Of a stretch of 15,885 nucleotides of DNA, positions 937 to 15,885 are shown piece after piece (position 1 is the stretch's first letter; every line of letters starts with the position of its first letter). Position numbers and translations under genes: made by a program. The notes beneath the pieces were generated by a model. It was not told the origin of the DNA. It searched no databases and saw only the letters and a program-made list of their open reading frames with translations. Origin of the DNA: a virus (Duplodnaviria > Heunggongvirae > Uroviricota > Caudoviricetes). Location of the stretch: the IMG/VR virus record IMGVR_UViG_2534681991_000026; one strand, written 5' to 3'.

Positions 937-949
937 GCTGCTGACCTCA

Positions 950-2951: not shown

Positions 2952-3074
2952 GCTTATTTTTTCGCCAGATTATTTTTCAAAAAATTACCGTGCATAAAAA
3001 TTTGGGGAGGCGTTCGGTTCTGGGCGGGGTCGGGTTCGTCCTGAAAACTCCCCCCACCCCGTCCGGCTGCCTCA
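2952..3074. other. Putative cos / packaging-site region between the HNH-side genes and terS
   Basis: 123-nt non-coding gap; G-rich tract (GGGAGGCG...TGGGCGGGGTCGGG...CTCCCCCCACCCC, 3004-3060) with partial inverted symmetry. HNH-cos-terS is the usual layout in HK97-like cos packaging modules. Inference only. Confidence 0.35.
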
Positions 3075-3974: not shown

Positions 3975-4309
3975 TTTTCCGCGCCCTCACTACAAAGAAT
4001 TTCAAGGCGTGTCCTGGCGGCATCTGGCAGCGGTTGCCCGATGATATTCAGTACACGCCCCGCCAGCGGCCCCGTATTGACCTTTATCCGACTGGTGGCG
4101 TTGATGTCCTTCCGGTAGCGTATCCATATCCTTACAGTTCCAGTCGCCAGCTCTGCACCTGATGAAATGGCCTCCTTGCTGCTGATCATGTTCACGCTTG
4201 CCCAGAGTGTGTGACCGTCCACCCACGTTTCGAGTATTTCGCCCGTCATGGCTCTGGTCTGTTTCAGGGTCTGAATCGTTACCCTGTCACGCAGTCGCCC
4301 TATGTTCAT
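3971..4309 (-). CDS. Head-tail joining / head closure protein
   Basis: Start taken at internal ATG (MNIGRLRDRVTIQ...) because it forms an ATGA overlap with the portal stop; family-typical N-terminal motif. The ORF track's 4351 start would overlap portal by 46 nt. Confidence 0.65.
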   Translation of the reverse strand: MNIGRLRDRVTIQTLKQTRAMTGEILETWVDGHTLWASVNMISSKEAISSGAELATGTVRIWIRYRKDINATSRIKVNTGPLAGRVLNIIGQPLPDAARTRLEILCSEGAEK

Positions 4310-5517
4310 TCCGGTTTTTCTCCCTCGCTGATTTTTACTTCCTGTTTCCATGCCTGGCTGAACTCATCACCACCATCACGCGGTGACAGTCCTTCACGTT
4401 CGCGGGCTTCGTTCGGACACATAACGCCGGATTTGATGCCGCGCTCATAGGTGGCAAAGCGTTCGCCAGGTGTGGCCCGTAACAGGTCCGCGCTGTCAAA
4501 CTCCACCTGATACCGGATACCAGGTACAGGCGAGGCCACCAGCAGGGCGTTTTTTATCTGCTGCTCAAAGTTCGCCAGCCACGGGCGCATCGTCATGGTG
4601 AGAAATGCGCGGCTTGCCTCGCTGAAATTGCTGTAGGTGCTGTTGCTGTATTCCTGCAAAAAAATCGGCGAGACGTTGAACATTCGGGCGATGTCTTCAA
4701 TGGTGAAGCGACGGGAGGCCAGCCATTCAGCATCCTGATTACTCATGCCCAGCTGCTGATAGCTCATACCCCCTTCAAGGATGGGCGTTTTTCCGGCGTT
4801 TCTGGCCCCTTTGTAGCGTTCCAGTGCGGCTAATGCCTGTTTGCCCTTCACGCCGTCCAGCCATTCGCCTGACGTGATAACCCCTGCCGCCATCATGCCA
4901 TCACGCATCACGCTCGCGCCGTGGCGTTGTTGGGCCAGCCCAAGCCCCAGCGATTCGCGGCAAATGGTTACAGGTGAGCGCCCCATAAAACCGTCATCCG
5001 TGGAGTAACGAAGGTGGAGAACCTCCCACGGTAAATAGTTGCGGGTGTTTCCGGTGTAAGCGTCAGTGATGCAGTAGCGCCAGTTGTGTTCTCCTGTCTG
5101 CTCCACGTTCACCGACTGCGGCGGGTAAGGATGTAAAGCCGCCGGAAAACCATCACGCCCCCACTGAATCACCGCGTAAGCATTACCGTTTAACAGGCAG
5201 TGGCGGATCATCATTCGCTTAAACTGGTAGGGAGTCTGCCACGCGTTCGGGCGCTCGTTGAGGATGTGATCGACCGGATGAGAATCAAGCCACTCGCGGG
5301 CCTCCTTCCCCTTCTCATTGCGTACCAGGTACAGGTAGCATGGCATAGTAGCCACCGCCTCAGAGATGACCGTGACGGCGTTCATGACGGCGGGGAGTGA
5401 TTCCGCTGTCCCCGATGATACGTACTCACCCGCCCCCGTGTTCGATGTGCCAGCCAGCGCCATAAATTCATCAAGCGTCATGCTGCGCTGCTCTTTTTTT
5501 CTTCTGAAAGGCCACAT
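4306..5517 (-). CDS. Portal protein, HK97 family
   Basis: 403 aa; size and position (after protease, before connector genes); GGGGGTG SD-like sequence 5 nt upstream of the ATG at 5517, which sits 1 nt after the protease stop. Confidence 0.8.
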   Translation of the reverse strand: MWPFRRKKEQRSMTLDEFMALAGTSNTGAGEYVSSGTAESLPAVMNAVTVISEAVATMPCYLYLVRNEKGKEAREWLDSHPVDHILNERPNAWQTPYQFKRMMIRHCLLNGNAYAVIQWGRDGFPAALHPYPPQSVNVEQTGEHNWRYCITDAYTGNTRNYLPWEVLHLRYSTDDGFMGRSPVTICRESLGLGLAQQRHGASVMRDGMMAAGVITSGEWLDGVKGKQALAALERYKGARNAGKTPILEGGMSYQQLGMSNQDAEWLASRRFTIEDIARMFNVSPIFLQEYSNSTYSNFSEASRAFLTMTMRPWLANFEQQIKNALLVASPVPGIRYQVEFDSADLLRATPGERFATYERGIKSGVMCPNEAREREGLSPRDGGDEFSQAWKQEVKISEGEKPE

Positions 5518-5518
5518 A

Positions 5519-6076
5519 TCACACCCCCGCTAAATCCGCCCACCAGCGGCGATTATCCGCACGCGGCATTTTTTCGGGGTGCTGCTCATACAGGGAACGG
5601 CGGGCCAGCTCCACGCCGGAATCGGGGTAAGCCGGTACGGATGTAACGGTAATTTCGTACAGTTCCGCCACCAGCACGGTGCGCACGCATGGATCTGTTG
5701 TGGTATCCCATACATCCTTACGGGAACGAAAGCCAAAGCTCATGCCGGATATATCACCACGTTTAACCAGTTCGATAACGTCACGCCCTGTGCTGGTATC
5801 CGGTGGGGTAAGTTCAAAGCGTAACCCTGTGTCGTCCTCTTCCAGTTTCAGCGTGCCAGAACGGGTGCGCCCCAGTAACATGCTGTGGTCATGCTCATAC
5901 AGGCCGCGAACGTCATTACCCGCCGCAAGCCACTCAGTAAACGCCCCCCGCTGGAATTTTTCGTAAAACTCCCCCCATAACAGTTCCGAAAGGTTATCCC
6001 AGCGAACAACGTAACCCGTCAGCGTGTTGCTGGCGCTGGTGGTGATTTCCGATGACCGGATTTCCATACTCTTCAT
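5519..6076 (-). CDS. Prohead (maturation) protease, HK97 family
   Basis: About 185 aa from the ATG at 6076 (MKSMEIRSSE...); the ORF track's longer form starts at a GTG (6190) inside the capsid gene. Lies between capsid and portal genes. Confidence 0.75.
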   Translation of the reverse strand: MKSMEIRSSEITTSASNTLTGYVVRWDNLSELLWGEFYEKFQRGAFTEWLAAGNDVRGLYEHDHSMLLGRTRSGTLKLEEDDTGLRFELTPPDTSTGRDVIELVKRGDISGMSFGFRSRKDVWDTTTDPCVRTVLVAELYEITVTSVPAYPDSGVELARRSLYEQHPEKMPRADNRRWWADLAGV

Positions 6077-6101
6077 AATTTTTTTCACCCATAAAACACT
6101 A

Positions 6102-6121
6102 AAGGGGCTTTTTAGCCCCTT
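6102..6121 (-). other. Stem-loop between capsid and protease genes (possible attenuator or processing site)
   Basis: AGGGGCT(6102-6108)/AGCCCCT(6115-6121), 7-bp stem with 6-nt loop, about 10 nt downstream of the capsid stop on the minus strand, followed by a weak U-tract (UAGUGUUUUA). Confidence 0.4.
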
Positions 6122-6131
6122 CTGTATGCTG

Positions 6132-7289
6132 TTAATCGTCGTCCTGTGGCAGTTCCAGAATCTTGATCGCGTTCGAATCCACCACGCCACCGCCTAAATA
6201 TTTCTGCGTGAAAATTTTGATGAATCCTGGTTCTGTCAGGTTGTCCGGTCTGGTGCGAACACCCGTTTCGTGATCAACAATGTAGTAACCGCGTTTGAAG
6301 TCACCCAGGGCAATAACGTTATCCGGCATAAACTCCAGATATTCGACCGGAAGGCCCAGCAACGTATCAGGATCACCAGCCTGTAAACGGTCGCGCCAGA
6401 TGTAATCACCGTTCGCGTTCTTCACCTTCTGAAGTTTTGCCGCCGTCGTGGAGTTAACCACCCAGACCGCGTTTTTGCGGTATTTTTTACGTAATGCAAA
6501 TTTCAGGTCGATCAGCGGGTCCGCAGATGTCCACGCAAGAGACTCAGAAGGCTTAATTACCTGCAACGTACCAAAATCACGTTCTTTGTCGTTCTTCTCT
6601 GCACGGGGTACGGATAAAAAGCCTTTTGCTTTTTTGTCACCGTCGCCCACAACCAGATCGCTTTCTTCGGTTTCCGTGAAGGTGTCGCCAATCTCACCCG
6701 TCAGCCATGAAAGGATGTCCACATCGGAAAAATCCACGATTTCCTGTGTGGTGCGCGGGTACGCATAGACCGGATACAGCTTAATGCTCACCTCGTTAAT
6801 CTGCGGGGTGCTGGTCTGTTCGCGTGCCTTACCCTCTTCACCGTGGTTAACGGTCGCACCGCCAGCGGAAACAAGCTGCTTAAACTCGTTGCTGCTGATT
6901 TTCTTCACGGTACAGATGCGGCGCATGGTGGATTCATCCGCCAGCATTCGCATGATTTCGGTGTTCAGCTCGGGGATAACGGTATAACCACCATCAGCGG
7001 GAACGCCTGTACTTAATGCGCGGGTTTCACCCGTCAGAATGTAGTTTCGTAGTTCTGCGGGGTCAGTGGTCTGGCTGCTTTTACCTGGCTTGCTGCGCTC
7101 TTCGTCTGCAATGGCTTCAAGGCGGGAAATGTCTTTATCGAGGGATTCAGCTTTAGCGCGTAATTCGTCAAATTTTGCGCCCTCTGCATCGTTAAGGCTG
7201 CGGTTTTCTTTTTCCGCGTTCTCCAGCATGTCGCGCATCTGATTTTTAATGGCGGTTTTCTGCTGGCGTAATTCGATTATTCTCGGCAT
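6132..7289 (-). CDS. Major capsid protein, HK97 fold, with N-terminal coiled-coil (delta/scaffold-like) domain
   Basis: 385 aa; charged coiled-coil-like N-terminal ~100 aa (ELRQQKTAIKNQMRDMLENAEKENRSL...) followed by a capsid-like body; first gene of the head operon. Confidence 0.8.
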   Translation of the reverse strand: MPRIIELRQQKTAIKNQMRDMLENAEKENRSLNDAEGAKFDELRAKAESLDKDISRLEAIADEERSKPGKSSQTTDPAELRNYILTGETRALSTGVPADGGYTVIPELNTEIMRMLADESTMRRICTVKKISSNEFKQLVSAGGATVNHGEEGKAREQTSTPQINEVSIKLYPVYAYPRTTQEIVDFSDVDILSWLTGEIGDTFTETEESDLVVGDGDKKAKGFLSVPRAEKNDKERDFGTLQVIKPSESLAWTSADPLIDLKFALRKKYRKNAVWVVNSTTAAKLQKVKNANGDYIWRDRLQAGDPDTLLGLPVEYLEFMPDNVIALGDFKRGYYIVDHETGVRTRPDNLTEPGFIKIFTQKYLGGGVVDSNAIKILELPQDDD

Positions 7290-7540
7290 AAAAAAAGTCC
7301 TGGGGTTAAGTAAGGAACTCCAGGACGCGGCAAAAACTCAACCGTTTTTCATAAGGAAATCAGCAATCGCACCGATCGTTTTTCCGCCTGGTAATGAATA
7401 TTGGTGAGCACATTAACAGGCGGGAAAGTGGCCCCAGCGTCCTGGCACCACTGGCGAGAATAATCATGATTCAGGGCGGGTAAAATATGCCGATCCGGTC
7501 AATGAACAACGTGGAACGACCACGAACAAATAATTTACAA
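7290..7540 (-). promoter_or_regulatory. Leader / promoter region of the head-packaging operon
   Basis: 250-nt non-coding region between an upstream terminator and the capsid ATG; contains the motif ATGAACAACGTGGAAC (7502-7517), also found at 248-264 and, inverted, at 14588-14600, plus inverted repeats (GTCCTGG 7297-7303 / CCAGGAC 7319-7325). Confidence 0.4.
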
Positions 7541-7570
7541 AAAATGACAAAAAGCCGGATTGCTCCGGCT
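7541..7570 (-). terminator. Rho-independent terminator after the 74-aa ORF
   Basis: Stem AGCCGGA(7553-7559)/TCCGGCT(7564-7570), loop TTGC; followed on the minus strand by a U-rich stretch (plus A-rich 7541-7552). Confidence 0.6.
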
Positions 7571-7580
7571 GTATGGGTGC

Positions 7581-7805
7581 TCAGTCCCTGATCCCTTTCA
7601 GAAATTCTATCAATGCATCTATCTGTTCAGGATTTACTGCCAGCATTTCACCGGATAGCGCACATCTGACAAATCCATGCCGATCCTTTTCGATTAGCGC
7701 GCCCGTTTCCAGGAATGCGCGGTAATCATTGATGTTCATCGTCTCCATGTTGTCAGCATGGTATTTATCACGCTGTTTTAATATCTCATCAAATTTCATC
7801 GGCAT
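7581..7805 (-). CDS. Hypothetical protein (74 aa)
   Basis: Start at ATG 7805 (MPMKFDEILKQRDKYHADNMETMN...) with AGAGGA SD about 7 nt upstream; flanked by terminators on both sides. Confidence 0.55.
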   Translation of the reverse strand: MPMKFDEILKQRDKYHADNMETMNINDYRAFLETGALIEKDRHGFVRCALSGEMLAVNPEQIDALIEFLKGIRD

Positions 7806-7899
7806 TGTTTTTTCCTCTGTTGTGTCTGTTTGTTTCAGATAGTAACTATGCCGGACCGTGACGAAAAGCCGGTAATGCGCCATACCGTTTCAACTGGCG

Positions 7900-7924
7900 C
7901 AAAAAAAGCCGGATTTCTCCGGCT
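7900..7924 (-). terminator. Rho-independent terminator after the PerC-like gene
   Basis: Stem AGCCGGA(7907-7913)/TCCGGCT(7918-7924), loop TTTC, preceded on plus by an A7 run (U-tract on minus). Stem sequence is identical to the terminator at 7553-7570. Confidence 0.65.
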
Positions 7925-7930
7925 GTGTGA

Positions 7931-8203
7931 TTAGCTGTCCTGGTAATTGCGCCGTATTTCATCACCAGCACCATCTATACCCATTTCGGCACAAGTGCGA
8001 TTAACTGCATTTCTCAGGTCTCCGAAATTATCAGGCGGCTCCGGTGGCCTCTGTGCCTTCCTGGAACATTCCAGCCGTCGCATCGTGATGTGATGCCGTT
8101 CCTTGTCTGTCTCCACCAGCATCATGACTTCACCCCATCGCGCCGCCGCCCTCCGGTAAAATCCTTTCGCTTCGAGTTCTTCCGCTATGCGGTCATGTAC
8201 CAT
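7931..8203 (-). CDS. PerC-family-like putative transcriptional activator (90 aa)
   Basis: Start at ATG 8203 (MVHDRIAEELEAKGFYRRAAARWGEVMM...) with GAGGGGG SD; the AE-LE--G--RRAA-RW pattern resembles PerC-like activators as I recall them. Sits just upstream of the head operon. Motif-level call only. Confidence 0.45.
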   Translation of the reverse strand: MVHDRIAEELEAKGFYRRAAARWGEVMMLVETDKERHHITMRRLECSRKAQRPPEPPDNFGDLRNAVNRTCAEMGIDGAGDEIRRNYQDS

Positions 8204-8213
8204 CGTCACCCCC

Positions 8214-8624
8214 TCAGAACGGAATATCATCACCGTAAGGGTCATCGCCTCCCGCTGGTGGCTGATTACCCTGTGTGCCTGTGGTTTTGCGTCTGCTGCC
8301 GCCTGGTCGCACCGTTTTCGCACTGATTACGCTGTCGGCAATGACCTGATAACCCTGACGCGTCTCCCCGTTCTGTCCGGTCCACTGGCTTATCTGCATC
8401 GTGCCGGATACGCTGATTACGTTGCCTTTCTCATGTCCTGCCAGTTGGTCGGCCTGTTTGCCAAATGCCAGGACCGACAGCCATAACGTAGCCTGCCCGT
8501 CCTGCGCCTGACTGCATGGCAGTGATACCGCCATACGCGCCAGCGTCATCGGTGTGCCCTTGCTGGTCTGTTTTACCTGCGGGTCGTCCACCAGCCGCCC
8601 GTAAGCTGCAATTTGTGCTGTCAT
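8214..8624 (-). CDS. ssb: Single-stranded DNA-binding protein
   Basis: 136 aa; OB-fold-like N-terminus, Gly-rich linker and the hallmark acidic C-terminal tail ...DDPYGDDIPF. Confidence 0.85.
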   Translation of the reverse strand: MTAQIAAYGRLVDDPQVKQTSKGTPMTLARMAVSLPCSQAQDGQATLWLSVLAFGKQADQLAGHEKGNVISVSGTMQISQWTGQNGETRQGYQVIADSVISAKTVRPGGSRRKTTGTQGNQPPAGGDDPYGDDIPF

Positions 8625-8633
8625 ATTGCCACC

Positions 8634-8939
8634 TCAGTGAAGCGATCCGGCGTTGTTCTTTTTCATCTCTTCCATCATTTTTTCAGTGAGCATTACGCAC
8701 TGAAAACCCATGTTTTTGATGTCTACGGGTTTCATGCCTTTGTCAGTGGATATCACAGGCAGAATATCCTGATACACATCGCGGTCAGGGTAACTAAGCA
8801 CACAAAGCGCCCATGATGCCACGGGTGAGGATCCTTCGTCTGTTTCAACCCACCAGCCTGGTGTAGCTGCGCTTATTTGCAGAATCGTGATCCGTCCGTT
8901 GTGCTTGTAAAATTTTTCACCAAATTTTGGTTCGCTCAT
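8634..8939 (-). CDS. Hypothetical protein (101 aa)
   Basis: ORF in operon context; 4-nt ATGA overlap with the upstream gene; no recognisable motif. Confidence 0.5.
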   Translation of the reverse strand: MSEPKFGEKFYKHNGRITILQISAATPGWWVETDEGSSPVASWALCVLSYPDRDVYQDILPVISTDKGMKPVDIKNMGFQCVMLTEKMMEEMKKNNAGSLH

Positions 8940-9250
8940 GATTCCACCTCTCCGGTTTTAACGTTGATGGTTGTTACCTGTTCCGCTTCGGCAATCTCCC
9001 GTTCTGTCAGCGTGGCAAAGTTTGCAGCTGCCGTTGTCATGAATGCGCTTATTAGTTCGGGATTCTCCTTCGCGTATCCTTCCCGTGTGTGGCGGTCTAT
9101 AACTTTGATTGCCACCTTTAGGGAAAGCTCTGTCATGTCTAACGCTTTATATTTTTGCTGTGTTCTGTCTCTGCGCATTTTGGTCATTTGTCGCCCCTGA
9201 TTCATGTTTTCGGTCGGCATGTTTGTTAAGTGATTTTGATGTATGCACAT
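8936..9250 (-). CDS. Hypothetical protein (104 aa)
   Basis: ATG at 9250 preceded by GAGGGGG about 9 nt upstream; first gene after the putative ori; no recognisable motif. Confidence 0.5.
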   Translation of the reverse strand: MCIHQNHLTNMPTENMNQGRQMTKMRRDRTQQKYKALDMTELSLKVAIKVIDRHTREGYAKENPELISAFMTTAAANFATLTEREIAEAEQVTTINVKTGEVES

Positions 9251-9289
9251 TTATTTTTACCCCCTCGTTTAAAAAGTTTTAGGTTGTGG

Positions 9290-9530
9290 TGCACCTCCTC
9301 TACCTCTCTACCTAATCATCTTTCAGGTCAGTAATGGCGCGGCTTTCAGATGGGTAGAGGGCTTTCGTGGCCCTCTACCCATCATCTACCCGCCCCTCAC
9401 AAACAACCTTAATCATGGTGGAGGGGGTAGAGGGCTTTTATTTGCCTTCTACCAGCCCCTCTACCCACTTATCATATTGAATAATGTATATTTATTTTCT
9501 TTAGGTAGAAGAGGTAGAGGGCTTTTGTCT
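9290..9530. repeat. Iteron array flanking an AT-rich stretch; putative replication origin
   Basis: At least 8 copies of the core GGTAGAG(GGC)/(GCC)CTCTACC in both orientations (about 9298, 9306, 9354, 9373, 9386, 9426, 9459, 9505, 9514), including a perfect 11-bp inverted pair GGGTAGAGGGC(9352-9362)/GCCCTCTACCC(9370-9380); AT-rich 9467-9503. Directly 3' of the primase gene. Confidence 0.6.
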
Positions 9531-9534
9531 AAAA

Positions 9535-11289
9535 TTATAAAAACGCGTCGCAATCCTCTGTTGTTGTCACATTGGTTTGCGTAAGTCCTTTAACCCTGCG
9601 CGTTATATATTCACATCCGTAAACTTTTGCCGCTGGCTTCATGGCCTTGCTGAAATCAGCCACGTTTAGCGGCTTGCTTCTTCCTGCGTATGCCATAAAC
9701 GCCAGATAGACGCGGTAAAGGCTGTTTCTGGTCGTGTACTTCACGGAATCGCCACCGCCACCCATCATCAGGCCGCGCGCTTCCTCCAGAAAATTCAGGA
9801 ACTGGCAAAACTCAATAACCGGATCCGTCTGTTGCTTTATTGCCAGTGCTTCATCACCGTCGCGCTGTTCCAGGAGTAAAGCCCGTGCCTTTTCAGGGTC
9901 GGCAAAGTTCGCCAGTAATCGGCGGATAATCACAGGGATTTCAGCCGCGACCTTCTCCGGCAAATCCTTGTCCTTTTCTGCCTCGCTAACGATATTGTCA
10001 AAGCGAAAAATAACCCGACGACGTGCCACGCCTCCGGCCCGTTCGGTGAATATCATCGGGTTGTTGTTGGTCGTCAGCACCACCGCCCTGATTACCGCCG
10101 TGAAACGCTTTTCATATTTCGGGTTAATTTCCACGGGGTCGCCGCCCGTGATTTTCTTGATGCCCGTTCCTTCGCCTGTATATTTCGGCTGGTCTGCCAG
10201 GACGATAAGACGACTCCCGACAACCTGCGCACGTCCACCAGCATCATCAAGCGATGTCATTTCAGCGCTTACCGTGTTCTGTTTCCCTGCCAGAAGGCTG
10301 GCTATGTGCGTGAATGTACTTTTACCGCTTCCGCCGTCTCCGGTGGCCTCAATAAACATCTGCCAGTCGTACCGGTTCGCCATAATCATGTACAGCGCGG
10401 CACATATACGCATCATCTTGCGCGGGTCTTTTCCGGCTGCGTGCTCAAGGCATTTATGAAAATTTGGCGCGTTATCGCGGATGTTCTCCCCTGGTGCTGG
10501 TGGCGTGTACTCAATACCGTTGTGCGTGGTGATCCAGTTCTCCGGCGTGTGCGGGGAAAATTCCCCCGTTTTCAGGTCAAGCGCACCATTGGCGAACGGC
10601 AACAAATCGCCGGACGGCTCGCCCATTGGTTCGGCAATAACTTTTAACGCTTCAACGGCGTTATTGATTACGCGCTTGCTGAAAGTGGCCCTGTGCTCTG
10701 AATAGATCGCCACCATTTCGCGGCTAAGTTCCATTGTGCTGACCGGACACCATAACCCGCCGCGCCATACGTGAACGATTTCACTTTCAGGATGTACGCA
10801 AACGCCATCAAAGCGATCGGAAAGCAGCTGAGCGCGTTCACTGTCCGCCATCTGCGAAAGTTGCGCCTTTTGCTTTACCGGAAGCTCAACGAACAGACCT
10901 TCAGAAAGATTCTGGCGCTCACGGGCCAGATATTCGCGCCAGTTCTCCACCTCCTGAACGTGCATTCCCTCAGGGTAAAAATTTGCATCCTGTACACCTG
11001 CCGCCGCCAGCTTCTGACCAATCGCCTTTATCATTACAGGTTCAAGATGTCCGGCCCTGAATATGCGTACTGATTTTCGGCCTTCCGGCACAATTTGCAG
11101 CTTATCCAGTTCGGATAACTGCTGATCCCCAAGCCACACAGGAGGCTCATTATCTCCGGCCATACGCGCGTCATGTTCCTGCCATTGTTTAGCGTGTGAC
11201 CAGGCATCACTACCCGCAAAAATAATGACTTCTGTTTCTTTGTGTTTTATGCCGCGTGACTGCTGTTTTACGTTCGGTGCAAGTTTCAT
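9535..11289 (-). CDS. Replication protein: P4-alpha-like primase/helicase
   Basis: 584 aa; N-terminal primase-like region and C-terminal NTPase with Walker A GDGGSGKST; typical of satellite and PICI replication modules; start overlaps the upstream gene (ATGA). Confidence 0.8.
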   Translation of the reverse strand: MKLAPNVKQQSRGIKHKETEVIIFAGSDAWSHAKQWQEHDARMAGDNEPPVWLGDQQLSELDKLQIVPEGRKSVRIFRAGHLEPVMIKAIGQKLAAAGVQDANFYPEGMHVQEVENWREYLARERQNLSEGLFVELPVKQKAQLSQMADSERAQLLSDRFDGVCVHPESEIVHVWRGGLWCPVSTMELSREMVAIYSEHRATFSKRVINNAVEALKVIAEPMGEPSGDLLPFANGALDLKTGEFSPHTPENWITTHNGIEYTPPAPGENIRDNAPNFHKCLEHAAGKDPRKMMRICAALYMIMANRYDWQMFIEATGDGGSGKSTFTHIASLLAGKQNTVSAEMTSLDDAGGRAQVVGSRLIVLADQPKYTGEGTGIKKITGGDPVEINPKYEKRFTAVIRAVVLTTNNNPMIFTERAGGVARRRVIFRFDNIVSEAEKDKDLPEKVAAEIPVIIRRLLANFADPEKARALLLEQRDGDEALAIKQQTDPVIEFCQFLNFLEEARGLMMGGGGDSVKYTTRNSLYRVYLAFMAYAGRSKPLNVADFSKAMKPAAKVYGCEYITRRVKGLTQTNVTTTEDCDAFL

Positions 11290-11585
11290 TTTTTACCCCT
11301 GAATACGTTCAACATCTTTCTTATTTCCTGAATATTGGCGCGTGCTTTCTCCCTGCTGGTGGGCACGTTACGCGGTACAGCCTGCACCAGAGAAAAATCA
11401 CGGTCGAACTGATAAACAGGCATAACGCAATCATATTCGTAGCCTTCACGGCGGTAAGTTACGCGCCGTTCCTCCACGCCCTTAATCATTACCGTGCCGC
11501 CGTACTTATCGCGGTAAATATCCCCGCACATGAATTTAGTGCGAGTTTTTCCGCTGGCAGTTAAGCCAGGATATTTAAGTTTCAT
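11286..11585 (-). CDS. Hypothetical protein (99 aa)
   Basis: ORF immediately upstream of and overlapping the primase start; same strand. Confidence 0.5.
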   Translation of the reverse strand: MKLKYPGLTASGKTRTKFMCGDIYRDKYGGTVMIKGVEERRVTYRREGYEYDCVMPVYQFDRDFSLVQAVPRNVPTSREKARANIQEIRKMLNVFRGKK

Positions 11586-11590
11586 TATTT

Positions 11591-11824
11591 TTATTCTCCG
11601 GTGTGCTGTTCTTTATATCTGTCGTGCAATAGGTCTATTTCTTGCAGTTCCATTATTACAGGCTCAAGAAGCGTTATTAATGCCGTAACAATTCTTGATT
11701 TTTGTTTGTCGCATTCATTGTCGCCAAGTGTTTCATGCCATATGCGCAATATTTCCAACATATTTTCACTGTGAGAAAGTGCAAGAAATGCGCGGTATAT
11801 TGTTTCGTGGTAAATATCACGCAT
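11591..11824 (-). CDS. Hypothetical protein (77 aa)
   Basis: ORF in tight operon (5-nt gap to next gene); AT-rich relative to the structural genes. Confidence 0.45.
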   Translation of the reverse strand: MRDIYHETIYRAFLALSHSENMLEILRIWHETLGDNECDKQKSRIVTALITLLEPVIMELQEIDLLHDRYKEQHTGE

Positions 11825-11825
11825 A

Positions 11826-12047
11826 TTAATCCCCGTCCGTCGTTTTTCTTAAAATAACCTCTGTCACGAAATCAGCATAATCGGCGGCGATATTCAGTAC
11901 GTCTATTCCAGTTGATTTATATTCTTTCGTGCCAATTAAGAAAAAAGATGCTCTAATCAGTTTGGATATTGACGAAAGCGCATCACCCGCATCATCAGAT
12001 ACGCCGGAAAATTCATGTTTCAGGGAATTAAAACGATCATCACGCAT
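11826..12047 (-). CDS. Hypothetical protein (73 aa)
   Basis: Start chosen at ATG 12047 (MRDDRFNSLKHEF...), which gives an 8-nt overlap with the upstream gene's stop; the longer ORF-track form (start 12095) would overlap by 56 nt. Confidence 0.4.
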   Translation of the reverse strand: MRDDRFNSLKHEFSGVSDDAGDALSSISKLIRASFFLIGTKEYKSTGIDVLNIAADYADFVTEVILRKTTDGD

Positions 12048-12264
12048 AACCCCCCCCATTTTCACAATCAGCAATAAGAATATTTTTAGCGTCATTCATC
12101 GACCGCGTGGCGGTGTATCGGATACATTCCAGGGCGAACAATGTGTATTCTTCCCGTTCTTCCTTTTGTGCAAGCACTGCTGTGCATTCAATATCAATAA
12201 GTGCGTGCATCAGCGTAGTGAGCGCGGCGGCTGCTGCGTCCGGTGTGGTTTTATTCTGCAACAT
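12040..12264 (-). CDS. Hypothetical protein (74 aa)
   Basis: ATG 12264 preceded by GGAG about 7 nt upstream; Ala-rich N-terminus. Confidence 0.45.
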   Translation of the reverse strand: MLQNKTTPDAAAAALTTLMHALIDIECTAVLAQKEEREEYTLFALECIRYTATRSMNDAKNILIADCENGGGYA

Positions 12265-12469
12265 ATCTTAACTCCACTGAACTTACGTATTTACACGGGT
12301 TTCCTTTTACCTGTCGCACACGGTAGGAATCGTTTTTAATCACTTCCGCTATTTGCCCAAACTTTTTTACCGCTGTACGGCGGCTCTTGTAGCGGTAAGT
12401 GTTTATCTCCCTTCTGCTCATTACCGCTTCATTGTGATATCTGGTTATCACTATCAGCACTTCAAACAT
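12251..12469 (-). CDS. Hypothetical protein (about 72 aa)
   Basis: Start taken at ATG 12469 (MFEVLIVITRYHNEAVMSRREIN...), overlapping the upstream icd-like stop as ATGTTTGA; alternative starts at 12499 or 12421. Confidence 0.4.
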   Translation of the reverse strand: MFEVLIVITRYHNEAVMSRREINTYRYKSRRTAVKKFGQIAEVIKNDSYRVRQVKGNPCKYVSSVELRYVAE

Positions 12470-12632
12470 GACGCACCCCCTGACGAATACGGGCGACAAA
12501 AATCAGATGTGCGCGCGGCAACTGGGCGCGGGCTTCGCGTTCAGTGGCTGCGGTAACGGTGTAAATATCAATGCTGCTGTGGTGGCACTGCATAAAGCGC
12601 CAGACAAAGTAAGGGCGTGCGGATACAGCCAT
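12462..12632 (-). CDS. Icd-like small protein, paralog 2 (56 aa)
   Basis: MAVSARPYFVWRFMQ...TEREARAQLPRAHLIFVARIRQG; GGGAG SD about 8 nt upstream of ATG 12632; paralogous to 12919-13116. Resembles the small Icd-like proteins annotated in P4-like prophages (from memory). An in-frame upstream extension to 12926 exists with no stop. Confidence 0.45.
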   Translation of the reverse strand: MAVSARPYFVWRFMQCHHSSIDIYTVTAATEREARAQLPRAHLIFVARIRQGVRHV

Positions 12633-12918
12633 GTGAAAGGCTCCCAATTTAATGTTAAGGGGTCTCACCACTACGCTGCTAAACGGGGTGGCGAGACGTA
12701 ACAGGGTTAGCAGACTGGCAAATTGGGAAACCAGCGAGCGCAAAGGCTCCCCCGTTACGCCCCGCCATAATGCGGGTATGGGTAGGTTTACGGACACAAA
12801 AAAACCGCTTATCGGATATGGGCGGCTGTCCGCCAATTTATTCAGGCTGCTAAACCCGGTCGCCATGTGGGCGACGGGGGAAGCATACAGCCCCGTGATA
12901 ATTTTTTGCAAGCGGTTT

Positions 12919-13116
12919 TTACGCATGATGTGACCCCTGACGAATACGAGCGGCAAATACAGCAACACAACCTGACGGGCAACGGCTACGCGCTTCGCGT
13001 TCCGTCCAGGCGGTTACGTGGATGATTTGAGATTCTCCGGCACTCAGGGCCAGAAAACGCCACACAAAGGCCGTTTGTGTGTGTACAAGGTGTGGTATAT
13101 GATTTACGGCAACCAT
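12919..13116 (-). CDS. Icd-like small protein, paralog 1 (65 aa)
   Basis: MVAVNHIPHLVHTQTAFVWRFLALSAGESQIIHVTAWTEREARSRCPSGCVAVFAARIRQG; AGGAG SD 5-6 nt upstream of ATG 13116; first gene of the leftward early operon. Confidence 0.5.
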   Translation of the reverse strand: MVAVNHIPHLVHTQTAFVWRFLALSAGESQIIHVTAWTEREARSRCPSGCVAVFAARIRQGSHHA

Positions 13117-13206
13117 AACGGCTCCTAGTTTACGTTGTTGGTTAGAAGCCCCGTTACTGCTCCTACAGTGCGGGGCTTTGCTCTTTGTATTTCAACAATC
13201 CTTTTG

Positions 13207-13239
13207 GTGTGTTTCATGTTATGGACACATGAAACACAC
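13207..13239. promoter_or_regulatory. Operator-like perfect inverted repeat in the divergent control region
   Basis: GTGTGTTTCATG(13207-13218)-N9-CATGAAACACAC(13228-13239); a third half-site GAAACACAC at 13276-13284 abuts a -10-like TATACT (13270-13275) upstream of the plus-strand gene at 13306. Confidence 0.55.
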
Positions 13240-13305
13240 GTCAAGGCTTTTTGTATTTCTTTTTTTGTGTATACTGAAACACACCGATGATTAGGAGTTT
13301 CAGAA

Positions 13306-13611
13306 ATGGCAACGGCTAACAAAAACGCAAAATCACAACTGACAACCGTCAGAGTCCCACTAGATGTTATGCAAGGGATGGAATCCGTTAAGCTGGACGG
13401 CGAAAGCAATGCCGGATTTATCGTAACCGCCATGCGCGGTGAAATCGCCCGCCGCCAGGCAGAAGGAAGCGGAGAAAATCCCCTTGTGTCTTCACTGGAT
13501 GCTTTGGCTAAGGTCGAACAAATTGGCATCAAGGCAGCGGAGGATATCGGGCAGCTTGTCACCGTTGCACGCGAAGAACTCCAGCGTCGCAAGACCCAAG
13601 AATCAGAATAA
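13306..13611 (+). CDS. Putative small DNA-binding regulator (101 aa), possibly ribbon-helix-helix
   Basis: ATG 13306 with AGGAG SD 9 nt upstream and a -10-like element; only clearly supported plus-strand gene inside the element; TTVRVPLDVMQGMESV suggests a beta-strand then helix as in RHH regulators (weak). Divergent from the leftward operon. Confidence 0.5.
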   Translation: MATANKNAKSQLTTVRVPLDVMQGMESVKLDGESNAGFIVTAMRGEIARRQAEGSGENPLVSSLDALAKVEQIGIKAAEDIGQLVTVAREELQRRKTQESE

Positions 13612-13940
13612 TCACTATCAGCGCCGTGGCGTGAGGTACTACGGCGCATTGCTTTACAGGCGCACACAATGACCAACGAAGAATCAACCGAAAAAACATC
13701 ACCTGCACGAAAAAGACGACGCAGAAAGAAAGAGCATGAATCAGAACGATTCGCGCCGTGTTCTTTTGCCCTTGAGAAGTACCTTAAAGAATACTCATCA
13801 AAGGAGAGAGCTTCGCAGTTATGGCAACGCACTGAACCAGACTGATTGCATTGCACACCAGCCTGATAGCGGCTATCATCCCCGTGCTTATGTTTGGGAT
13901 CACACACACAAACTGCGCAGCGGGTTATCTGTTCAGAAAG

Positions 13941-13968
13941 GCGGCTCCATTTCGGGGCCGCTTTTTTT
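13941..13968 (+). terminator. Strong rho-independent terminator of the rightward transcript
   Basis: GCGGCTCC(13941-13948)/GGGGCCGC(13954-13961) stem (one G-U pair), 5-nt loop, followed by T7 (13962-13968). Confidence 0.7.
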
Positions 13969-14114
13969 ATGCCTGAAAAACTCCAATTTTGTTGTTTTTC
14001 AGTTTCACCAGGGCGAACGAATCCCTGCCCACATTCGGGCGTATATTCAATCTTCATGGTTATAGCTCTGTGTTCAGATGATTGATGTGTGGCGGCTGCG
14101 TGCCGCCAGCGTGA

Positions 14115-14303
14115 TTAATGAACTGCCTTGCAGCTATCCTTCCAGGCCAGAACCTCGGATAAAGACCAGCCAACGGAACGACCGCCAAGTTTACGACGTG
14201 ATGGGAATTGTCCGGCCTTTTCCATGCGGTAGCGACACGTACGGCTAAGGCCGGTTAGTTTTTCGCATTCTTTTTCACGTATAAACCGATCAGTGCTTAA
14301 CAC
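14115..14303 (-). CDS. alpA: AlpA-family phage regulatory protein
   Basis: 62 aa; ...EKLTGLSRTCRYRMEKAGQFPSRRKLGGRSVGWSLSEVLAWK... matches the AlpA HTH pattern (compare E. coli AlpA ...LGVKSVGWIEAEIDEWL); directly downstream of int as in P4-like elements and PICIs. Confidence 0.85.
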   Translation of the reverse strand: MLSTDRFIREKECEKLTGLSRTCRYRMEKAGQFPSRRKLGGRSVGWSLSEVLAWKDSCKAVH

Positions 14304-14453
14304 TATTGCCCCCTTTCGTTTCTTAAAGAGTCATCAGGTGTCTTATTGTGTCGTATTGTTCCCGCTAGAGTGATGAATGGCAAATGTTGGTGGCGCATGG
14401 TTTACAGAAAGAGGAATAATCAGGATAAAATCATTTAAATTCATGTTAATACA

Positions 14454-14487
14454 AAGGCATAAAATCTCGTTTTATGCCTTTTTTCTC
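14454..14487. terminator. Terminator-like hairpin between int and alpA (possibly bidirectional)
   Basis: AAGGCATAAAA(14454-14464)/TTTTATGCCTT(14470-14480), loop TCTCG; T-run TTTTCTC on plus and U-rich flank on minus. Confidence 0.5.
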
Positions 14488-14575
14488 ACGCTTTAAAGCG
14501 TGATTCGCTAATGTATAAAAAACCAGTAATATAATAAAAATCAGCAACTTATAAATCTGTATGCTTTTTCGCCTC

Positions 14576-14625
14576 TTGTTCGTGATTGTTCCACGTTGTT
14601 GCACATTGTTTCACGTTGTATCTGT
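14576..14625. repeat. 10-bp phased tandem repeat (nCACGTTGTT-like) downstream of int
   Basis: TTGTT recurs at 14576, 14586, 14596, 14606 (then TTGTA at 14616) with exact 10-bp spacing; units cgtgaTTGTT, ccacgTTGTT, gcacaTTGTT, tcacgTTGTa. Contains GTTCCACGTTGTT (14588-14600), the reverse complement of the motif at 252-264 and 7505-7517. Confidence 0.6.
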
Positions 14626-14667
14626 TCGCATATCCAGTATGCGCATACTGAAAAAACCCGAAAAAAA

Positions 14668-15885
14668 TTATTTTCTTCTGGCTACGGGTAGCGTGGTTAC
14701 GTTTTCATGTGCTCCCGCCAGTATCCCTAACCGCTCCGTCCACATATCCAGCGCATCACGTTTCGCATCCAGATAACGGGAATGGTTATAGACTCGTTGC
14801 ATCCCTGGCATCTGATGACCTGTAAGCTGCTCCACGACGTGAGGATCCGCGCCTAAATCGTTCAGCATCGTTGTAAAGGTGCGCCGGATGTCATGCAGTG
14901 ACCATTGAGGGTGTTTTAGCCTCCTGTGCGCTAATCTGCCGTACTGCGATACGCTGGCCTCCTGTTTCACTTCCCCCAGCAATAAGCCCGTGTGCCTGTT
15001 CTGCTCCACCAGCTTCATGACAAACGGCAGGATCGCTTCCGGTATGGGCCGGAATATTGCGACCTTCGTTTTGCTGTGCTCCTTCGGAACGGTCCATAGC
15101 ATTTCCGTAAAATCCCACTCCCCGATCTCCGATAACCTCAGTTCTACCGTTCTGGCACCGAAGACAATCAGGAGGCGGATTAACGCGACGTAGTAAGGGG
15201 AAAATATTTTTTTATCCAGTGCCTGCAATAACTCGCCAAGTTCTTTGGTGCTTAAGACACGCTCGCTTATATCCGGTTTTTTCCCAACGTCCGCAACGTT
15301 CAGATCGTCCAGAACGTTGCTGATTGCATAGCGCCGCCTACGGCAGAACTTAAGCGCCTGTTTGCACGCCTGTAGCACGAATCCGGCAGTAACAGGCGTT
15401 CGCTTTGCCACCTGGTCAAAACAAGCCAGCCAGTGCCGTAGCTCGCATTTATCCAGCGGCATAGCACCAATGTGCTGTATTACGTGATTATTAAGTCGCC
15501 TTTTCAGGGCGATATAATCCACGCGGTTTTCCTTTACGTAAGACTCAAGCCAGTAGGTAAGCGCATCGCCAACCGTTACGGGCTTTAACGCTTCCTGTAC
15601 GGTGTAATTCATCTCATGACGTGGATTTTTCCCCTCAGCCAGCCATGCGCGACACTGTGCGGCTTTTTCCCTGGCTGCTTTCAGGCTCAGATCAGGATAA
15701 CTTCCCAGCTTAATGCGTTCGGGTCGTGTCTCCCTTCCCGTTCCGGCCCTGTATGTGAAATACCATGTTAATTTCCCTGATGTTAAATATTTCACGCTCA
15801 GGTTTCCGCCATCACTATAAAACGTGTTTTTCTCAGCTGGCTTACCATGAAGTTTCCTTAGCAATGTATCGCTCAGTTTGTTCAT
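14668..15885 (-). CDS. int: Tyrosine recombinase / integrase, P4 family
   Basis: 405 aa; P4-type N-terminus (MNKLSDTLL...FYSDGGNLSV), catalytic-domain motifs (HDIRRTF, ...RVYNHSRY); start codon at the window edge, so the cognate att site is expected just beyond 15885. Confidence 0.9.
   Translation of the reverse strand: MNKLSDTLLRKLHGKPAEKNTFYSDGGNLSVKYLTSGKLTWYFTYRAGTGRETRPERIKLGSYPDLSLKAAREKAAQCRAWLAEGKNPRHEMNYTVQEALKPVTVGDALTYWLESYVKENRVDYIALKRRLNNHVIQHIGAMPLDKCELRHWLACFDQVAKRTPVTAGFVLQACKQALKFCRRRRYAISNVLDDLNVADVGKKPDISERVLSTKELGELLQALDKKIFSPYYVALIRLLIVFGARTVELRLSEIGEWDFTEMLWTVPKEHSKTKVAIFRPIPEAILPFVMKLVEQNRHTGLLLGEVKQEASVSQYGRLAHRRLKHPQWSLHDIRRTFTTMLNDLGADPHVVEQLTGHQMPGMQRVYNHSRYLDAKRDALDMWTERLGILAGAHENVTTLPVARRK

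What the first reader, a model, noticed from the sequence alone, without database searches (positions are those of the whole stretch)
12040..12060. G8 homopolymer exactly at the stop/start junction of two small genes
On the minus strand ATGGGGGGGGTTATG (plus C8 at 12050-12057) lies within the 8-nt window where one ORF ends (stop 12040-12042) and the next can start (ATG 12047 or 12059). An 8-nt G/C run is a classic slipped-strand mispairing substrate, so a +/-1 slip would change start-codon choice or the N-terminus of the downstream protein, a possible phase-variable switch.
Basis: seen in the sequence. Interest (0 to 1): 0.35.

Follow-up and report, generated by a model that had tools for sequence, protein, structure and literature searches.

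The report
Length-variable G-run joining two satellite genes
A run of eight G's at the overlap of two small genes in an E. coli phage-satellite island is a genuine slippage hot spot: related islands carry 5 to 12 G's, so the two proteins are made separately or fused, but it looks like a slowly changing, tolerated polymorphism rather than a proven fast on/off switch.

Summary
The C8 run (G8 on the minus strand, 12050-12057) is real. It is the only homopolymer of 8 or more in the window, though one such run is not beyond chance. The window is a capsid-forming PICI-type satellite inserted in tqsA. The run lies in the last Gly codons of a 74-aa gene (12040-12264) and 3-10 nt upstream of the ATG (12047) of a 73-aa gene, where it is the only Shine-Dalgarno-like element. 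The two genes overlap by ATGCGTGA.

In 144 related loci the tract region is 7 nt (23%), 8 nt (47%), 9 nt (21%) or 10-12 nt (9%). For one identical allele, every state from G5 to G12 exists in public assemblies. The window's own allele occurs as G7 on 933 contigs and as G8 on 907. G7 and G10 fuse the two ORFs into one 144/145-aa protein. G8 and G9 keep them apart.

Both halves are under purifying selection, and distant relatives are two separate genes with the same 8-nt overlap. States are stably inherited: about 240 O157:H7/O145 genomes are G7, while O55:H7 is G8.

Verdict: the hypermutable tract is confirmed. The start-codon-choice idea is wrong. Adaptive phase variation is unproven.

The parts
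12050..12057 (-). G8 homopolymer. It encodes Gly codons GGG GGG GG(T) at the C-terminus of the upstream gene and occupies positions -10 to -3 before the downstream ATG, where it acts as an SD-like element. It is a slippage hot spot.
   Evidence: sequence; anti-SD duplex -11.1 kcal/mol; length polymorphism G5-G12 in relatives.
12040..12264 (-). Upstream small gene, 74 aa (WP_001368660.1). It matches phrog_5146 and the N-terminal half of phrog_2512. Predicted helical hairpin; function unknown.
   Evidence: pN/pS 0.31-0.46.
11826..12047 (-). Downstream small gene, 73 aa (WP_001204069.1), starting MRDDRF. It matches phrog_24341 and the C-terminal half of phrog_2512. Predicted three helices; function unknown.
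   Evidence: It is intact (73/77 aa) in all tract states. pN/pS is 0.35-0.42 in split-state and fused-state loci alike. It also occurs as a stand-alone gene behind an unrelated gene in L219/L221/L222.
12040..12047 (-). 8-nt start/stop overlap ATGCGTGA (ATG of the downstream gene, TGA of the upstream gene). This is translational-coupling geometry.
   Evidence: A distant relative (L230) has the same 8-nt overlap, ATGCATAA, preceded by CAGGAGGTGGGGC.
12022..12055 (-). Predicted mRNA hairpin in which the G-run plus the AUG pair with UAAUUCCCU inside the downstream gene. It might occlude the SD and start codon. Weak evidence only.
   Evidence: dG about -12 to -13 kcal/mol, z -1.7 to -2.0, and 6-12 of 200 shuffles fold as well. 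A common T/G polymorphism at +21 breaks one pair.
12008..12075 (-). Block of near-zero nucleotide diversity, synonymous sites included, around the tract. It sits between variable N- and C-terminal modules.
   Evidence: third-codon-position diversity is about 0 from -18 to +39, against about 0.5 elsewhere. Only 9+14 nt of this block were forced by the search pattern.
11591..11824 (-). Third small gene (77 aa, phrog_2196). Its junction (11816-11834, GGGGATTAATATGCGTGAT) repeats the G-rich SD plus ATGCGTGAT start.
   Evidence: L190 carries a deletion joining the upstream half directly to this gene across the repeated junction.
1..15885 (-). The host element: a capsid-forming PICI-like satellite inserted in tqsA of E. 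coli 2011C-4315. It carries integrase, an AlpA-like HTH, Icd-like genes, small genes, DUF4222, primase, SSB, PerC, HK97 capsid, protease, portal, connectors, HNH, TerS and TerL, and no tail or lysis genes.
   Evidence: 100% identical record, PGAP annotation, tqsA split on both sides; cf-PICI literature.

Best explanation
The G8 run is an over-extended G-rich Shine-Dalgarno element embedded in the last codons (Gly-Gly-Gly) of the upstream gene. That gene is one of a pair of translationally coupled small genes in the early (alpA-to-primase) operon of an E. coli PICI/cf-PICI satellite. As a G/C homopolymer of 7-9 nt it undergoes replication slippage much more often than ordinary sites mutate, so related islands carry G5 to G12.

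Length modulo 3 sets the architecture:
- G8 or G11 (this window): two proteins of 74 and 73 aa, with the ancestral-type 8-nt ATGCGTGA overlap.
- G9 or G12: the same two proteins, but the upstream one gains the tail LCVMIVLIP and stops 27 nt into the downstream gene.
- G7 or G10: one fused 144/145-aa protein in which the tract encodes the linker between two helical modules.

The downstream half keeps its own ATG and SD in every state, so both polypeptide modules can be made in all three frames. This is the likely reason all frames are tolerated and common. The states are heritable and change on the time scale of clone divergence, not within a few generations.

Shown: the anatomy, the polymorphism, independent recurrent changes, coding constraint on both halves, and the two-gene ancestry. 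Inferred: SD use, translational coupling, near-neutrality of the fused versus split state, and slippage as the mutational mechanism.
For: Tract lengths:
- In 144 related loci from IMG/VR, metagenomes and Shigella, the tract region is 7 nt in 33, 8 nt in 68, 9 nt in 30, 10 nt in 5, 11 nt in 4 and 12 nt in 4. It is uninterrupted G in 92%.
- Exact-sequence look-ups for one upstream allele give G5 on 11 contigs, G6 on 5, G7 on 258, G8 on at least 1000, G9 on at least 1000, G10 on 152, G11 on 47 and G12 on 8.
- The window's own allele gives G6 on 5, G7 on 933, G8 on 907, G9 on 14 and G11 on 1.

Recurrence:
- Five independent pairs with at most 2 substitutions in 800 bp differ in tract length.
- At least 37 length changes are needed on a neighbour-joining tree of 75 haplotypes.

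Controls:
- An A8 run at the preceding junction of the same operon is A8 in 30 loci and A7 in 2.
- Other runs are mostly invariant.

Complete E. coli genomes show about 357 G7, 179 G8, 167 G9 and 20 G10. PHROGs holds separate families for the fused form and for each half.

Coding and ancestry:
- The downstream ORF is intact in all states, and pN/pS is 0.3-0.46 for both halves.
- In an exhaustive profile search, distant relatives are stand-alone proteins of 72-77 aa. The downstream type starts at the MRDD methionine and the upstream type lacks GGG.
- Distant locus L230 has the same 8-nt overlap behind CAGGAGGTGGGGC.

Translation signals:
- SD duplex energy is -11.1 kcal/mol for ATG-12047, +0.4 for ATG-12059 and -2.4 for ATG-12095. 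Other genes of the operon also use G4-G5 SDs.

Stability in clones:
- About 240 O157:H7/O145 genomes are G7, whereas O55:H7 strains with identical flanks are G8.

The AF2 model puts the tract-encoded residues 69-74 in the linker between two helical modules.
Against: - No expression data exist, so SD use, coupling and production of both polypeptides in each state are inferred.
- The run's 3' end is only 2 nt from the ATG, so only its 5' part has canonical SD spacing.
- The tract and about 60 nt around it are far more conserved at synonymous sites than the rest of the genes. Pure neutrality does not predict this, and it could mean selection for the tract itself.
- The loci were found with a pattern requiring 23 exact flanking bases, which inflates the apparent conservation of the junction.
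- The counts are affected by clonal over-sampling (STEC) and by gene-caller choices.
- The function of the proteins is unknown: no Pfam, PDB or fold match.
Confidence: 0.68

Rival explanations
1. This is a selected contingency (bet-hedging) locus. The satellite keeps a mutable G-run so that populations always contain fused and unfused versions of the two early proteins, which differ in activity, for example toward different helper phages or host defences.
For: - The tract stays pure G in 92% of loci, although synonymous diversity in the same genes is about 0.3-0.5.
- All three frames are frequent, and the window's allele is about 50:50 G7:G8.
- A same-length A8 run nearby is nearly monomorphic.
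- The region downstream of alpA is described as variable and of unknown function in cf-PICIs.
Against: - States are stably inherited in clones. About 240 O157:H7/O145 genomes are all G7 in the rows sampled, and 12 of 12 identical-flank pairs share the same length. This argues for a modest rate.
- The length distribution is smooth and unimodal, with no 3-periodicity, as expected without frame-specific selection.
- Interrupted 'locked' tracts exist.
- The conserved block may reflect the translation-initiation region or recombination rather than selection for mutability.
- No phenotype is known.
Confidence: 0.18
2. The functional gene is the single 145-aa ORF. G8 in this window is then a frameshift that inactivates it (an OFF state or an incipient pseudogene), and the two 'genes' are just fragments.
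For: - Fused forms are abundant and diverse (top 120 hits; phrog_2512).
- O157:H7 is fixed for the fused form.
- The neighbouring Icd-like gene in this island is flagged as frameshifted.
Against: - Distant relatives are two separate genes with the same 8-nt overlap and no G-run.
- The split states (G8, G9) are modal in every data set except the STEC-biased complete genomes.
- The downstream half has its own ATG and a strong SD, and it occurs alone behind another gene.
- It remains intact and under purifying selection in split-state loci.
- All interrupted 'locked' tracts are in split frames, with lengths 8, 11 and 12.
Confidence: 0.08
3. This is a programmed recoding site. RNA-polymerase slippage or ribosomal +1/-1 frameshifting on G GGG GGG, stimulated by the run's own anti-SD pairing, produces both separate and fused proteins from one template.
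For: - G_GGG_GGG allows perfect tRNA re-pairing in a shifted frame.
- The run pairs strongly with the anti-SD, as the stimulators of prfB and dnaX frameshifting do (textbook knowledge).
- A +1 shift from the G8 frame would give exactly the fusion seen elsewhere.
Against: - Programmed sites keep a fixed length and frame in relatives. Here the DNA length varies freely and all frames are encoded directly.
- No separate downstream stimulatory structure is present. The only predicted hairpin uses the run itself and is marginal.
- Efficient transcriptional slippage in E. coli is known for A/T runs of about 9 or more, not for G8 (from memory).
- No data on products are available.
Confidence: 0.04
4. 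The tract-length differences are sequencing or assembly artefacts at a homopolymer.
For: - Long-read assemblies miscall G/C homopolymers.
- The Nissle 1917 (G8) versus EcN_Sk (G7) difference, with identical flanks, could be such an error.
Against: - The same states recur in hundreds to over 1000 independent contigs, including Illumina-based NCBI, Logan and SPAdes metagenome assemblies.
- States follow phylogeny: O55:H7 is G8 and O157:H7 is G7.
- An A8 run in the same loci is nearly invariant.
Confidence: 0.02

Closest known systems
Homopolymeric-tract contingency loci (slipped-strand mispairing), e.g. poly-G tracts of Campylobacter jejuni, where adjacent annotated ORFs such as cj0031/cj0032 become one ORF when the tract changes length (from memory, not checked here)
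   Same: A G/C run of 7-10 nt lies inside coding sequence. Its length is polymorphic between strains. A +/-1 change merges or splits adjacent annotated ORFs.
   Different: In those loci the out-of-frame state is OFF, meaning a truncated protein with no independent downstream start. Switching is fast (1e-3 to 1e-4) in an MMR-poor host. Here the downstream part has its own SD and ATG and is ancestrally a separate gene, the host is MMR-proficient E. coli, and states are clonally stable.
Hypermutable poly-G tracts in Campylobacter phages (receptor-binding genes; Sorensen et al. 2021, from memory)
   Same: A mobile viral or satellite element carries a G-run whose length variation creates protein variants.
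   Different: Those tracts switch receptor-binding proteins on and off, with a demonstrated host-range phenotype. Here the proteins are early-operon helical proteins of unknown function, and no phenotype is known.
Translationally coupled overlapping gene pairs with the downstream SD inside the upstream ORF (e.g. trp operon junctions; ATGA/TGATG-type overlaps; textbook knowledge)
   Same: The start and stop overlap (ATGCGTGA). A purine/G-rich SD lies in the last codons of the upstream gene. Distant relative L230 has the same geometry.
   Different: Here the SD has become a pure G8 homopolymer, which makes the junction mutationally unstable and able to fuse the pair.
Programmed frameshift sites with internal SD-like stimulators (prfB +1, dnaX -1; textbook knowledge)
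   Same: A G-rich anti-SD-pairing element lies next to a potentially slippery sequence at a point where two frames meet.
   Different: The length and frame are not conserved, and there is no dedicated stimulatory structure. The alternative frames are realised at the DNA level.
cf-PICI / PICI phage satellites of Enterobacteria (EcCIEDL933, EcCICFT073)
   Same: The host element has the cf-PICI gene set. The region after alpA is known to be variable and of unknown function. The same gene pair is named 'prophage protein' in CFT073.
   Different: The papers searched make no mention of this tract.

Membership tests
SSR / homopolymeric-tract phase-variable (contingency) locus | A mononucleotide run of at least about 7 within an ORF or between a promoter/SD and the start codon | tested here: met
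   G8 at 12050-12057 lies in the last codons of the upstream ORF and 2 nt before the downstream ATG.
SSR / homopolymeric-tract phase-variable (contingency) locus | Tract length polymorphic among otherwise near-identical alleles, changing recurrently and independently | tested here: met
   G5-G12 occur for one identical allele. The window's allele is G7 on 933 contigs and G8 on 907. Five independent near-identical pairs differ, and at least 37 changes are needed on the tree.
SSR / homopolymeric-tract phase-variable (contingency) locus | A length change alters the encoded product or its expression | tested here: met
   At sequence level the outcome is fused 144/145 aa, or 74+73 aa, or 83+73 aa. 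Expression itself was not testable.
SSR / homopolymeric-tract phase-variable (contingency) locus | High-frequency, reversible switching within a clonal population (about 1e-5 per generation or more) | not testable with these tools
   No read-level data are available. Indirect evidence points to a modest rate: 12 of 12 identical-flank pairs share one length, and the sampled O157:H7/O145 genomes are all G7. Nissle 1917 versus EcN_Sk differ, but that may be an assembly error.
SSR / homopolymeric-tract phase-variable (contingency) locus | A phenotypic difference between states that is subject to selection | not testable with these tools
   Protein function is unknown. The smooth length distribution shows no frame-specific selection.
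Translationally coupled overlapping gene pair | The stop of the upstream gene overlaps or abuts the start of the downstream gene | tested here: met
   ATGCGTGA overlap at 12040-12047. The same 8-nt overlap occurs in distant relative L230.
Translationally coupled overlapping gene pair | An SD for the downstream gene lies inside the upstream coding sequence | tested here: met
   The duplex with the anti-SD is -11.1 kcal/mol, the strongest in the operon, and the alternative ATGs have none. Actual use in vivo was not tested.
Programmed ribosomal frameshift / transcriptional slippage site | Slippery sequence of conserved length and frame relationship among homologues | tested here: not met
   Length varies from 5 to 12, and all three frame relationships are common at the DNA level.
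Programmed ribosomal frameshift / transcriptional slippage site | A dedicated stimulatory element (a downstream hairpin or pseudoknot at 5-9 nt, or an upstream SD at defined spacing) | tested here: inconclusive
   The only predicted hairpin includes the run itself (dG about -12, z about -1.8). The 151-nt context folds no better than shuffles (z +1.0).
cf-PICI (capsid-forming phage-inducible chromosomal island) | An island of about 10-16 kb with integrase, an AlpA-type regulator, primase/replication genes, and its own capsid, protease, portal, connector and terminase genes, but no tail or lysis genes | tested here: met
   PGAP annotation of the 100%-identical record. The island is about 15.9 kb and splits tqsA.
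cf-PICI (capsid-forming phage-inducible chromosomal island) | Helper-phage-dependent induction and packaging into its own capsids with hijacked tails | not testable with these tools
   This is an experimental property, known for EcCIEDL933.

The most novel reading that the evidence does not exclude
The G-run is a selected, heritable switch that E. coli PICI/cf-PICI satellites use to toggle two early-operon proteins between a covalently fused and a two-subunit form. This would change how the satellite senses or interferes with helper phages. It would be the first simple-sequence contingency locus described in a phage satellite, and one of very few in E. coli. A second, weaker A7/A8 run at the preceding junction would extend the same logic to a three-protein fusion.
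Probability: 0.15. Interest if true: 0.65.

Novelty: new member of a known kind. Interest (0 to 1): 0.38.

Why it matters
E. coli is usually considered poor in simple-sequence contingency loci, and phage satellites are under active study. Here a single G-run produces three alternative protein architectures of a conserved early-operon gene pair, and it is present in about one sixth of complete E. coli genomes (889 of 5426 match the junction).

- For annotation, it explains why databases hold three 'families' (phrog_2512, phrog_5146 and phrog_24341) for what is one locus, and why gene counts differ between near-identical islands.
- For typing, the tract is a lineage marker: O55:H7 is G8 and O157:H7 is G7.
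- For biology, if fused and split forms differ in activity, the tract would be a bet-hedging device for satellite-helper interactions. If they do not, it is a clean natural example of gene fusion and fission by slippage being tolerated because each module keeps its own translation signals.

Tried and rejected
- Function of the proteins. There is no Pfam hit, and PHROGs families are all 'unknown function'. No PDB sequence match has E below 0.9. A Foldseek search of PDB with the AF2 model (pLDDT 68) gave only generic helical bundles, with E at least 0.09 and TM at most 0.38. No function is assigned.
- Chance test. A G8 run in the window is not significant on its own, so that argument was dropped.
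- RNA structure. The 151-nt context folds no better than shuffles. The local hairpin is marginal, and one of its pairs is broken by a common T/G polymorphism. It is kept only as a weak possibility.
- Rate estimate from whole-tree parsimony. The tree is saturated (3.9 substitutions per site), so the ratio is meaningless. Close pairs were used instead.
- Genome-contig scan. It returned only one hit, Shigella flexneri, because there is one genome per species. It says little about host range.
- Counting tract states in complete genomes with short BLAST queries works only approximately, because about 239 partial 100% hits must be subtracted.
- Literature. Four searches and one full-text check found no description of this tract. 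Absence from this library is not proof of novelty.
- The alternative starts ATG-12059 and ATG-12095 were rejected for lack of an SD and because homologues start at MRDD.

Full report
**Observation.** The minus strand reads ...GCT GAT TGT GAA AAT GGG GGG GGT TAT GCG TGA. The G8 run is at 12057-12050, which is C8 at 12050-12057 on the plus strand. The 74-aa ORF 12040-12264 ends ...ENGGGYA* with TGA at 12042-12040. The next ORF is open from ATG-12095 and has further in-frame ATGs at 12059 and 12047. This is the only homopolymer of 8 or more in the window. One G8/C8 is not unusual for a sequence of this size and composition: 63 of 200 shuffles have at least one.

**Context.** The window is 100% identical to E. 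coli 2011C-4315 (NZ_CP024479), and it is essentially one mobile element that splits tqsA. The gene order is:
- integrase, an AlpA-like HTH regulator and Icd-like genes;
- a string of small overlapping genes, then DUF4222 and primase;
- SSB and PerC;
- HK97-type capsid, protease, portal, head-closure and connector proteins, HNH, TerS and TerL.

There are no tail or lysis genes. This is the gene set of a capsid-forming PICI satellite, in which the region after alpA is described as variable and of unknown function. PGAP annotates the upstream gene at 12040-12264 (WP_001368660.1) and the downstream gene at 11826-12047 (WP_001204069.1, starting MRDDRF). The two genes therefore overlap by ATGCGTGA.

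**What the run is in the mRNA.** The run has two roles. It supplies the Gly-Gly-Gly codons at the end of the upstream gene, and it occupies positions -10 to -3 before ATG-12047.
- Its predicted duplex with the 16S anti-SD is -11.1 kcal/mol, the strongest in the operon. ATG-12059 (+0.4) and ATG-12095 (-2.4) have no SD.
- Neighbouring genes also use short G-runs as SDs: CAGGGGG before orf72, ACGGGGATTAAT before the third gene, and CAGGGG before primase.
- The third gene starts with the same ATGCGTGAT.
- A distant relative (L230) has the same architecture without a homopolymer...CAGGAGGTGGGGC ATG CAT AA, again an 8-nt start/stop overlap.

I therefore read the run as a G-rich SD inside the upstream gene that has become a pure homopolymer. 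The window's G8 state matches the ancestral two-gene, translationally coupled arrangement. SD use and coupling are inferred, not shown.

**Comparative test of tract length.** A pattern scan (TGTGAAAAT, then 3-16 nt, then ATGCGTGATGATCG) found 90 matches in IMG/VR, 53 in metagenomes and 1 in Shigella. The tract region in these 144 loci has the following lengths:

| Length (nt) | Loci |
|---|---|
| 7 | 33 |
| 8 | 68 |
| 9 | 30 |
| 10 | 5 |
| 11 | 4 |
| 12 | 4 |

- The tract is uninterrupted G in 132 of 144 loci.
- Twelve loci carry an interrupting T or A. All twelve have lengths 8, 11 or 12, which are split frames.
- Pairs with identical 800-bp flanks always share the same length (12 of 12 pairs). 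All 8 pairs with 1-2 substitutions differ in length, and these represent 5 independent cases: L022/L072, L029-group/L077, L042/L053, L050/L063 and L059/L081.
- A neighbour-joining tree of 75 haplotypes needs at least 37 length changes.
- Exact-sequence look-ups in the 15-billion-protein collection give every predicted product for one identical upstream allele.
- The same look-ups were run for the window's own allele.

| State | One upstream allele, contigs | Window's own allele, contigs |
|---|---|---|
| G5 | 11 | not looked up |
| G6 | 5 | 5 |
| G7 (fused) | 258 | 933 |
| G8 | at least 1000 | 907 |
| G9 | at least 1000 | 14 |
| G10 (fused) | 152 | 0 |
| G11 | 47 | 1 |
| G12 | 8 | not looked up |

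- In 5,426 complete E. coli genomes, 889 contain the junction. After removing about 239 partial hits, the states are roughly G7 357, G8 179, G9 167 and G10 20, with a bias toward STEC clones.
- Controls: an A8 run at the preceding junction of the same operon in related islands is A8 in 30 loci and A7 in 2. Other runs of 6-7 nt are mostly invariant.

The run is a real, recurrent mutational hot spot and not a sequencing artefact: Illumina-based assemblies show all states, and the states follow phylogeny.

**What a slip does.** A slip does not change start-codon choice, because the 3' end of the run stays 2 nt from ATG-12047. It changes the upstream reading frame relative to the downstream gene.
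- **G7 or G10:** the two ORFs fuse into one protein of 144/145 aa (...ENGG(G)VMRDD...). A search with the hypothetical fusion returned 451 hits, and the best 120 are all such single ORFs.
- **G8 or G11:** two genes with the 8-nt overlap, as in this window.
- **G9 or G12:** the upstream protein gains the tail LCVMIVLIP and stops 27 nt into the downstream gene.

PHROGs holds one family for the fusion (phrog_2512) and one for each half (phrog_5146 and phrog_24341). The AF2 model (pLDDT 68) is all-helical, and the tract-encoded residues 69-74 form the linker between a two-helix and a three-helix module.

**Which state is 'the gene'?**
- In an exhaustive profile search of 1.84 billion representatives, the family is small (53 representatives).
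- Its distant members are stand-alone proteins of 72-77 aa. The downstream type begins exactly at the MRDD-equivalent methionine. The upstream type ends without GGG.
- The downstream half also occurs alone behind an unrelated gene, preceded by CAGGGGGGTAAAC-ATG (L219, L221 and L222).
- The downstream ORF is intact (73 or 77 aa) in nearly all loci whatever the tract state.
- Both halves show purifying selection (pN/pS 0.31-0.46, pS 0.1-0.39), and the downstream half does so equally in split-state and fused-state loci.

Two separate genes is therefore the ancestral and still modal arrangement, and the fusion is a derived form produced by the tract. The length distribution is smooth and unimodal, with no three-nucleotide periodicity. 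This suggests that no frame is strongly selected against, and it is understandable if both modules are translated in every state.

**How fast does it change?** The states are heritable.
- About 240 O157:H7/O145:H28 genomes (16 of 60 evenly spaced rows) carry exactly G7 and a single fused CDS.
- O55:H7 strains (CB9615, RM12579, DEC5A/B/E, TB182A, USDA5905) have the same 84 flanking bases with G8 and two CDSs. No O157:H7 strain appears among the 17 exact G8 matches.
- Two assemblies of Nissle 1917 differ: G8 in CP022686 and G7 in EcN_Sk, with identical flanks. This could be a laboratory change or an assembly error.

Length changes therefore occur on roughly the time scale at which about one substitution accumulates per kilobase. 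That is far faster than a normal site, but it gives no sign of the rapid switching of classical contingency loci. The true per-generation rate cannot be measured with these tools.

**Unexplained residue.** A block from about 12008 to 12075, which includes the run, has almost no synonymous diversity, while the rest of both genes has third-position diversity near 0.5. Only 23 nt of that block were forced by the search pattern. There are three candidate explanations:
- constraints on the translation-initiation region;
- a marginal hairpin pairing the run and the AUG with UAAUUCCCU (dG about -12 kcal/mol, z about -1.8), weakened by a common T/G polymorphism;
- a recombination block between variable N- and C-terminal modules. 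L190 shows a deletion between the repeated junction motifs.

This conservation is the main point in favour of the contingency-locus rival, in which the tract itself is selected.

**Comparison with known systems.**
- *Slipped-strand hot spot:* mechanistically this is a homopolymeric slipped-strand hot spot. It resembles poly-G contingency loci in which neighbouring ORFs merge when the tract changes (Campylobacter; from memory). It fails or cannot be tested on the defining features of fast reversible switching and a selected phenotype.
- *Translationally coupled pair:* it meets the sequence-level features of a translationally coupled overlapping gene pair.
- *Programmed frameshift site:* it does not behave like one, because length and frame are not conserved.
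- *Literature:* no paper in the searchable library describes the tract.

**Verdict.**
The tract is hypermutable and has a real protein-level consequence. The proposed consequence (start-codon choice) is wrong, and adaptive phase variation is unproven.
- This is a new example of a known kind of feature.
- Interest is moderate (0.38).

Noticed in passing
L226 491-498 (E. coli Nissle 1917, the gene junction preceding the upstream half); not present in the window, which has a different gene there: There is a second homopolymer at the previous gene junction in related islands...AACG-A8-TGCGGAGGGGTACATG. A8 gives separate genes (...ISNEKKCGGVHVQ*). A7 would fuse the phrog_1478 gene to the upstream half (...ISNEKNAEGYMCNKTT), which explains the 217-224-aa triple fusions P0018 and P0083. 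The run is A8 in 30 loci and A7 in 2.
   Followed up: partly
window 12462-12926 (-): PGAP marks an Icd-like host cell division inhibitor gene as 'frameshifted' immediately upstream in the same operon. A second, intact Icd-like gene lies at 12919-13116. The cause of the frameshift was not examined.
   Followed up: no
window 12251-12469 (-): A 72-aa ORF with a strong G-rich SD (CAGGGGGUGCGUC-AUG, -10.7 kcal/mol) matches phrog_9805 (E 1.5e-22) but is left unannotated in the RefSeq record.
   Followed up: partly
window 12008-12075 (-): A sharp valley of nucleotide diversity, with synonymous sites near 0 against about 0.5 elsewhere, surrounds the tract. It lies between mosaic variable modules of both genes. 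It may be a translation-initiation or RNA element, or a recombination block.
   Followed up: partly
L190 about 1690-1740; L219/L221/L222 about 1490-1520: The modules are shuffled at the repeated junction motif (G-run followed by ATGCGTGAT). In L190 the upstream half is joined through a G6 run directly to the third gene (MRDIY...), so the downstream half is deleted. In L219-type loci the downstream half stands alone behind an unrelated gene with CAGGGGGGTAAAC-ATG.
   Followed up: partly
window 6079-6085, 7808-7813, 13260-13266 (+): Intergenic T6/T7 runs just upstream of gene starts (prohead protease, a hypothetical gene, and the YlcI/YnfO gene) show two length states among related islands: 8 vs 2, 12 vs 4 and 8 vs 3. 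They might affect promoter or SD spacing.
   Followed up: no
L225 vs L226 (E. coli EcN_Sk CP172017 vs Nissle 1917 CP022686): Two assemblies of the probiotic strain Nissle 1917 differ at this tract: G7 with one fused 144-aa CDS, against G8 with two CDSs. The 670 bp of compared flanks are identical. This is either a real laboratory-lineage change or a homopolymer assembly error.
   Followed up: partly
window 11826-12095 (-): Some gene callers extend the downstream gene to ATG-12095 (89 aa, MTLKIFLLLIVKMGGVMRDD...). That product is recorded on 460 contigs (P0242), although the start has no SD and lies inside the upstream gene. It is probably an annotation artefact.
   Followed up: yes
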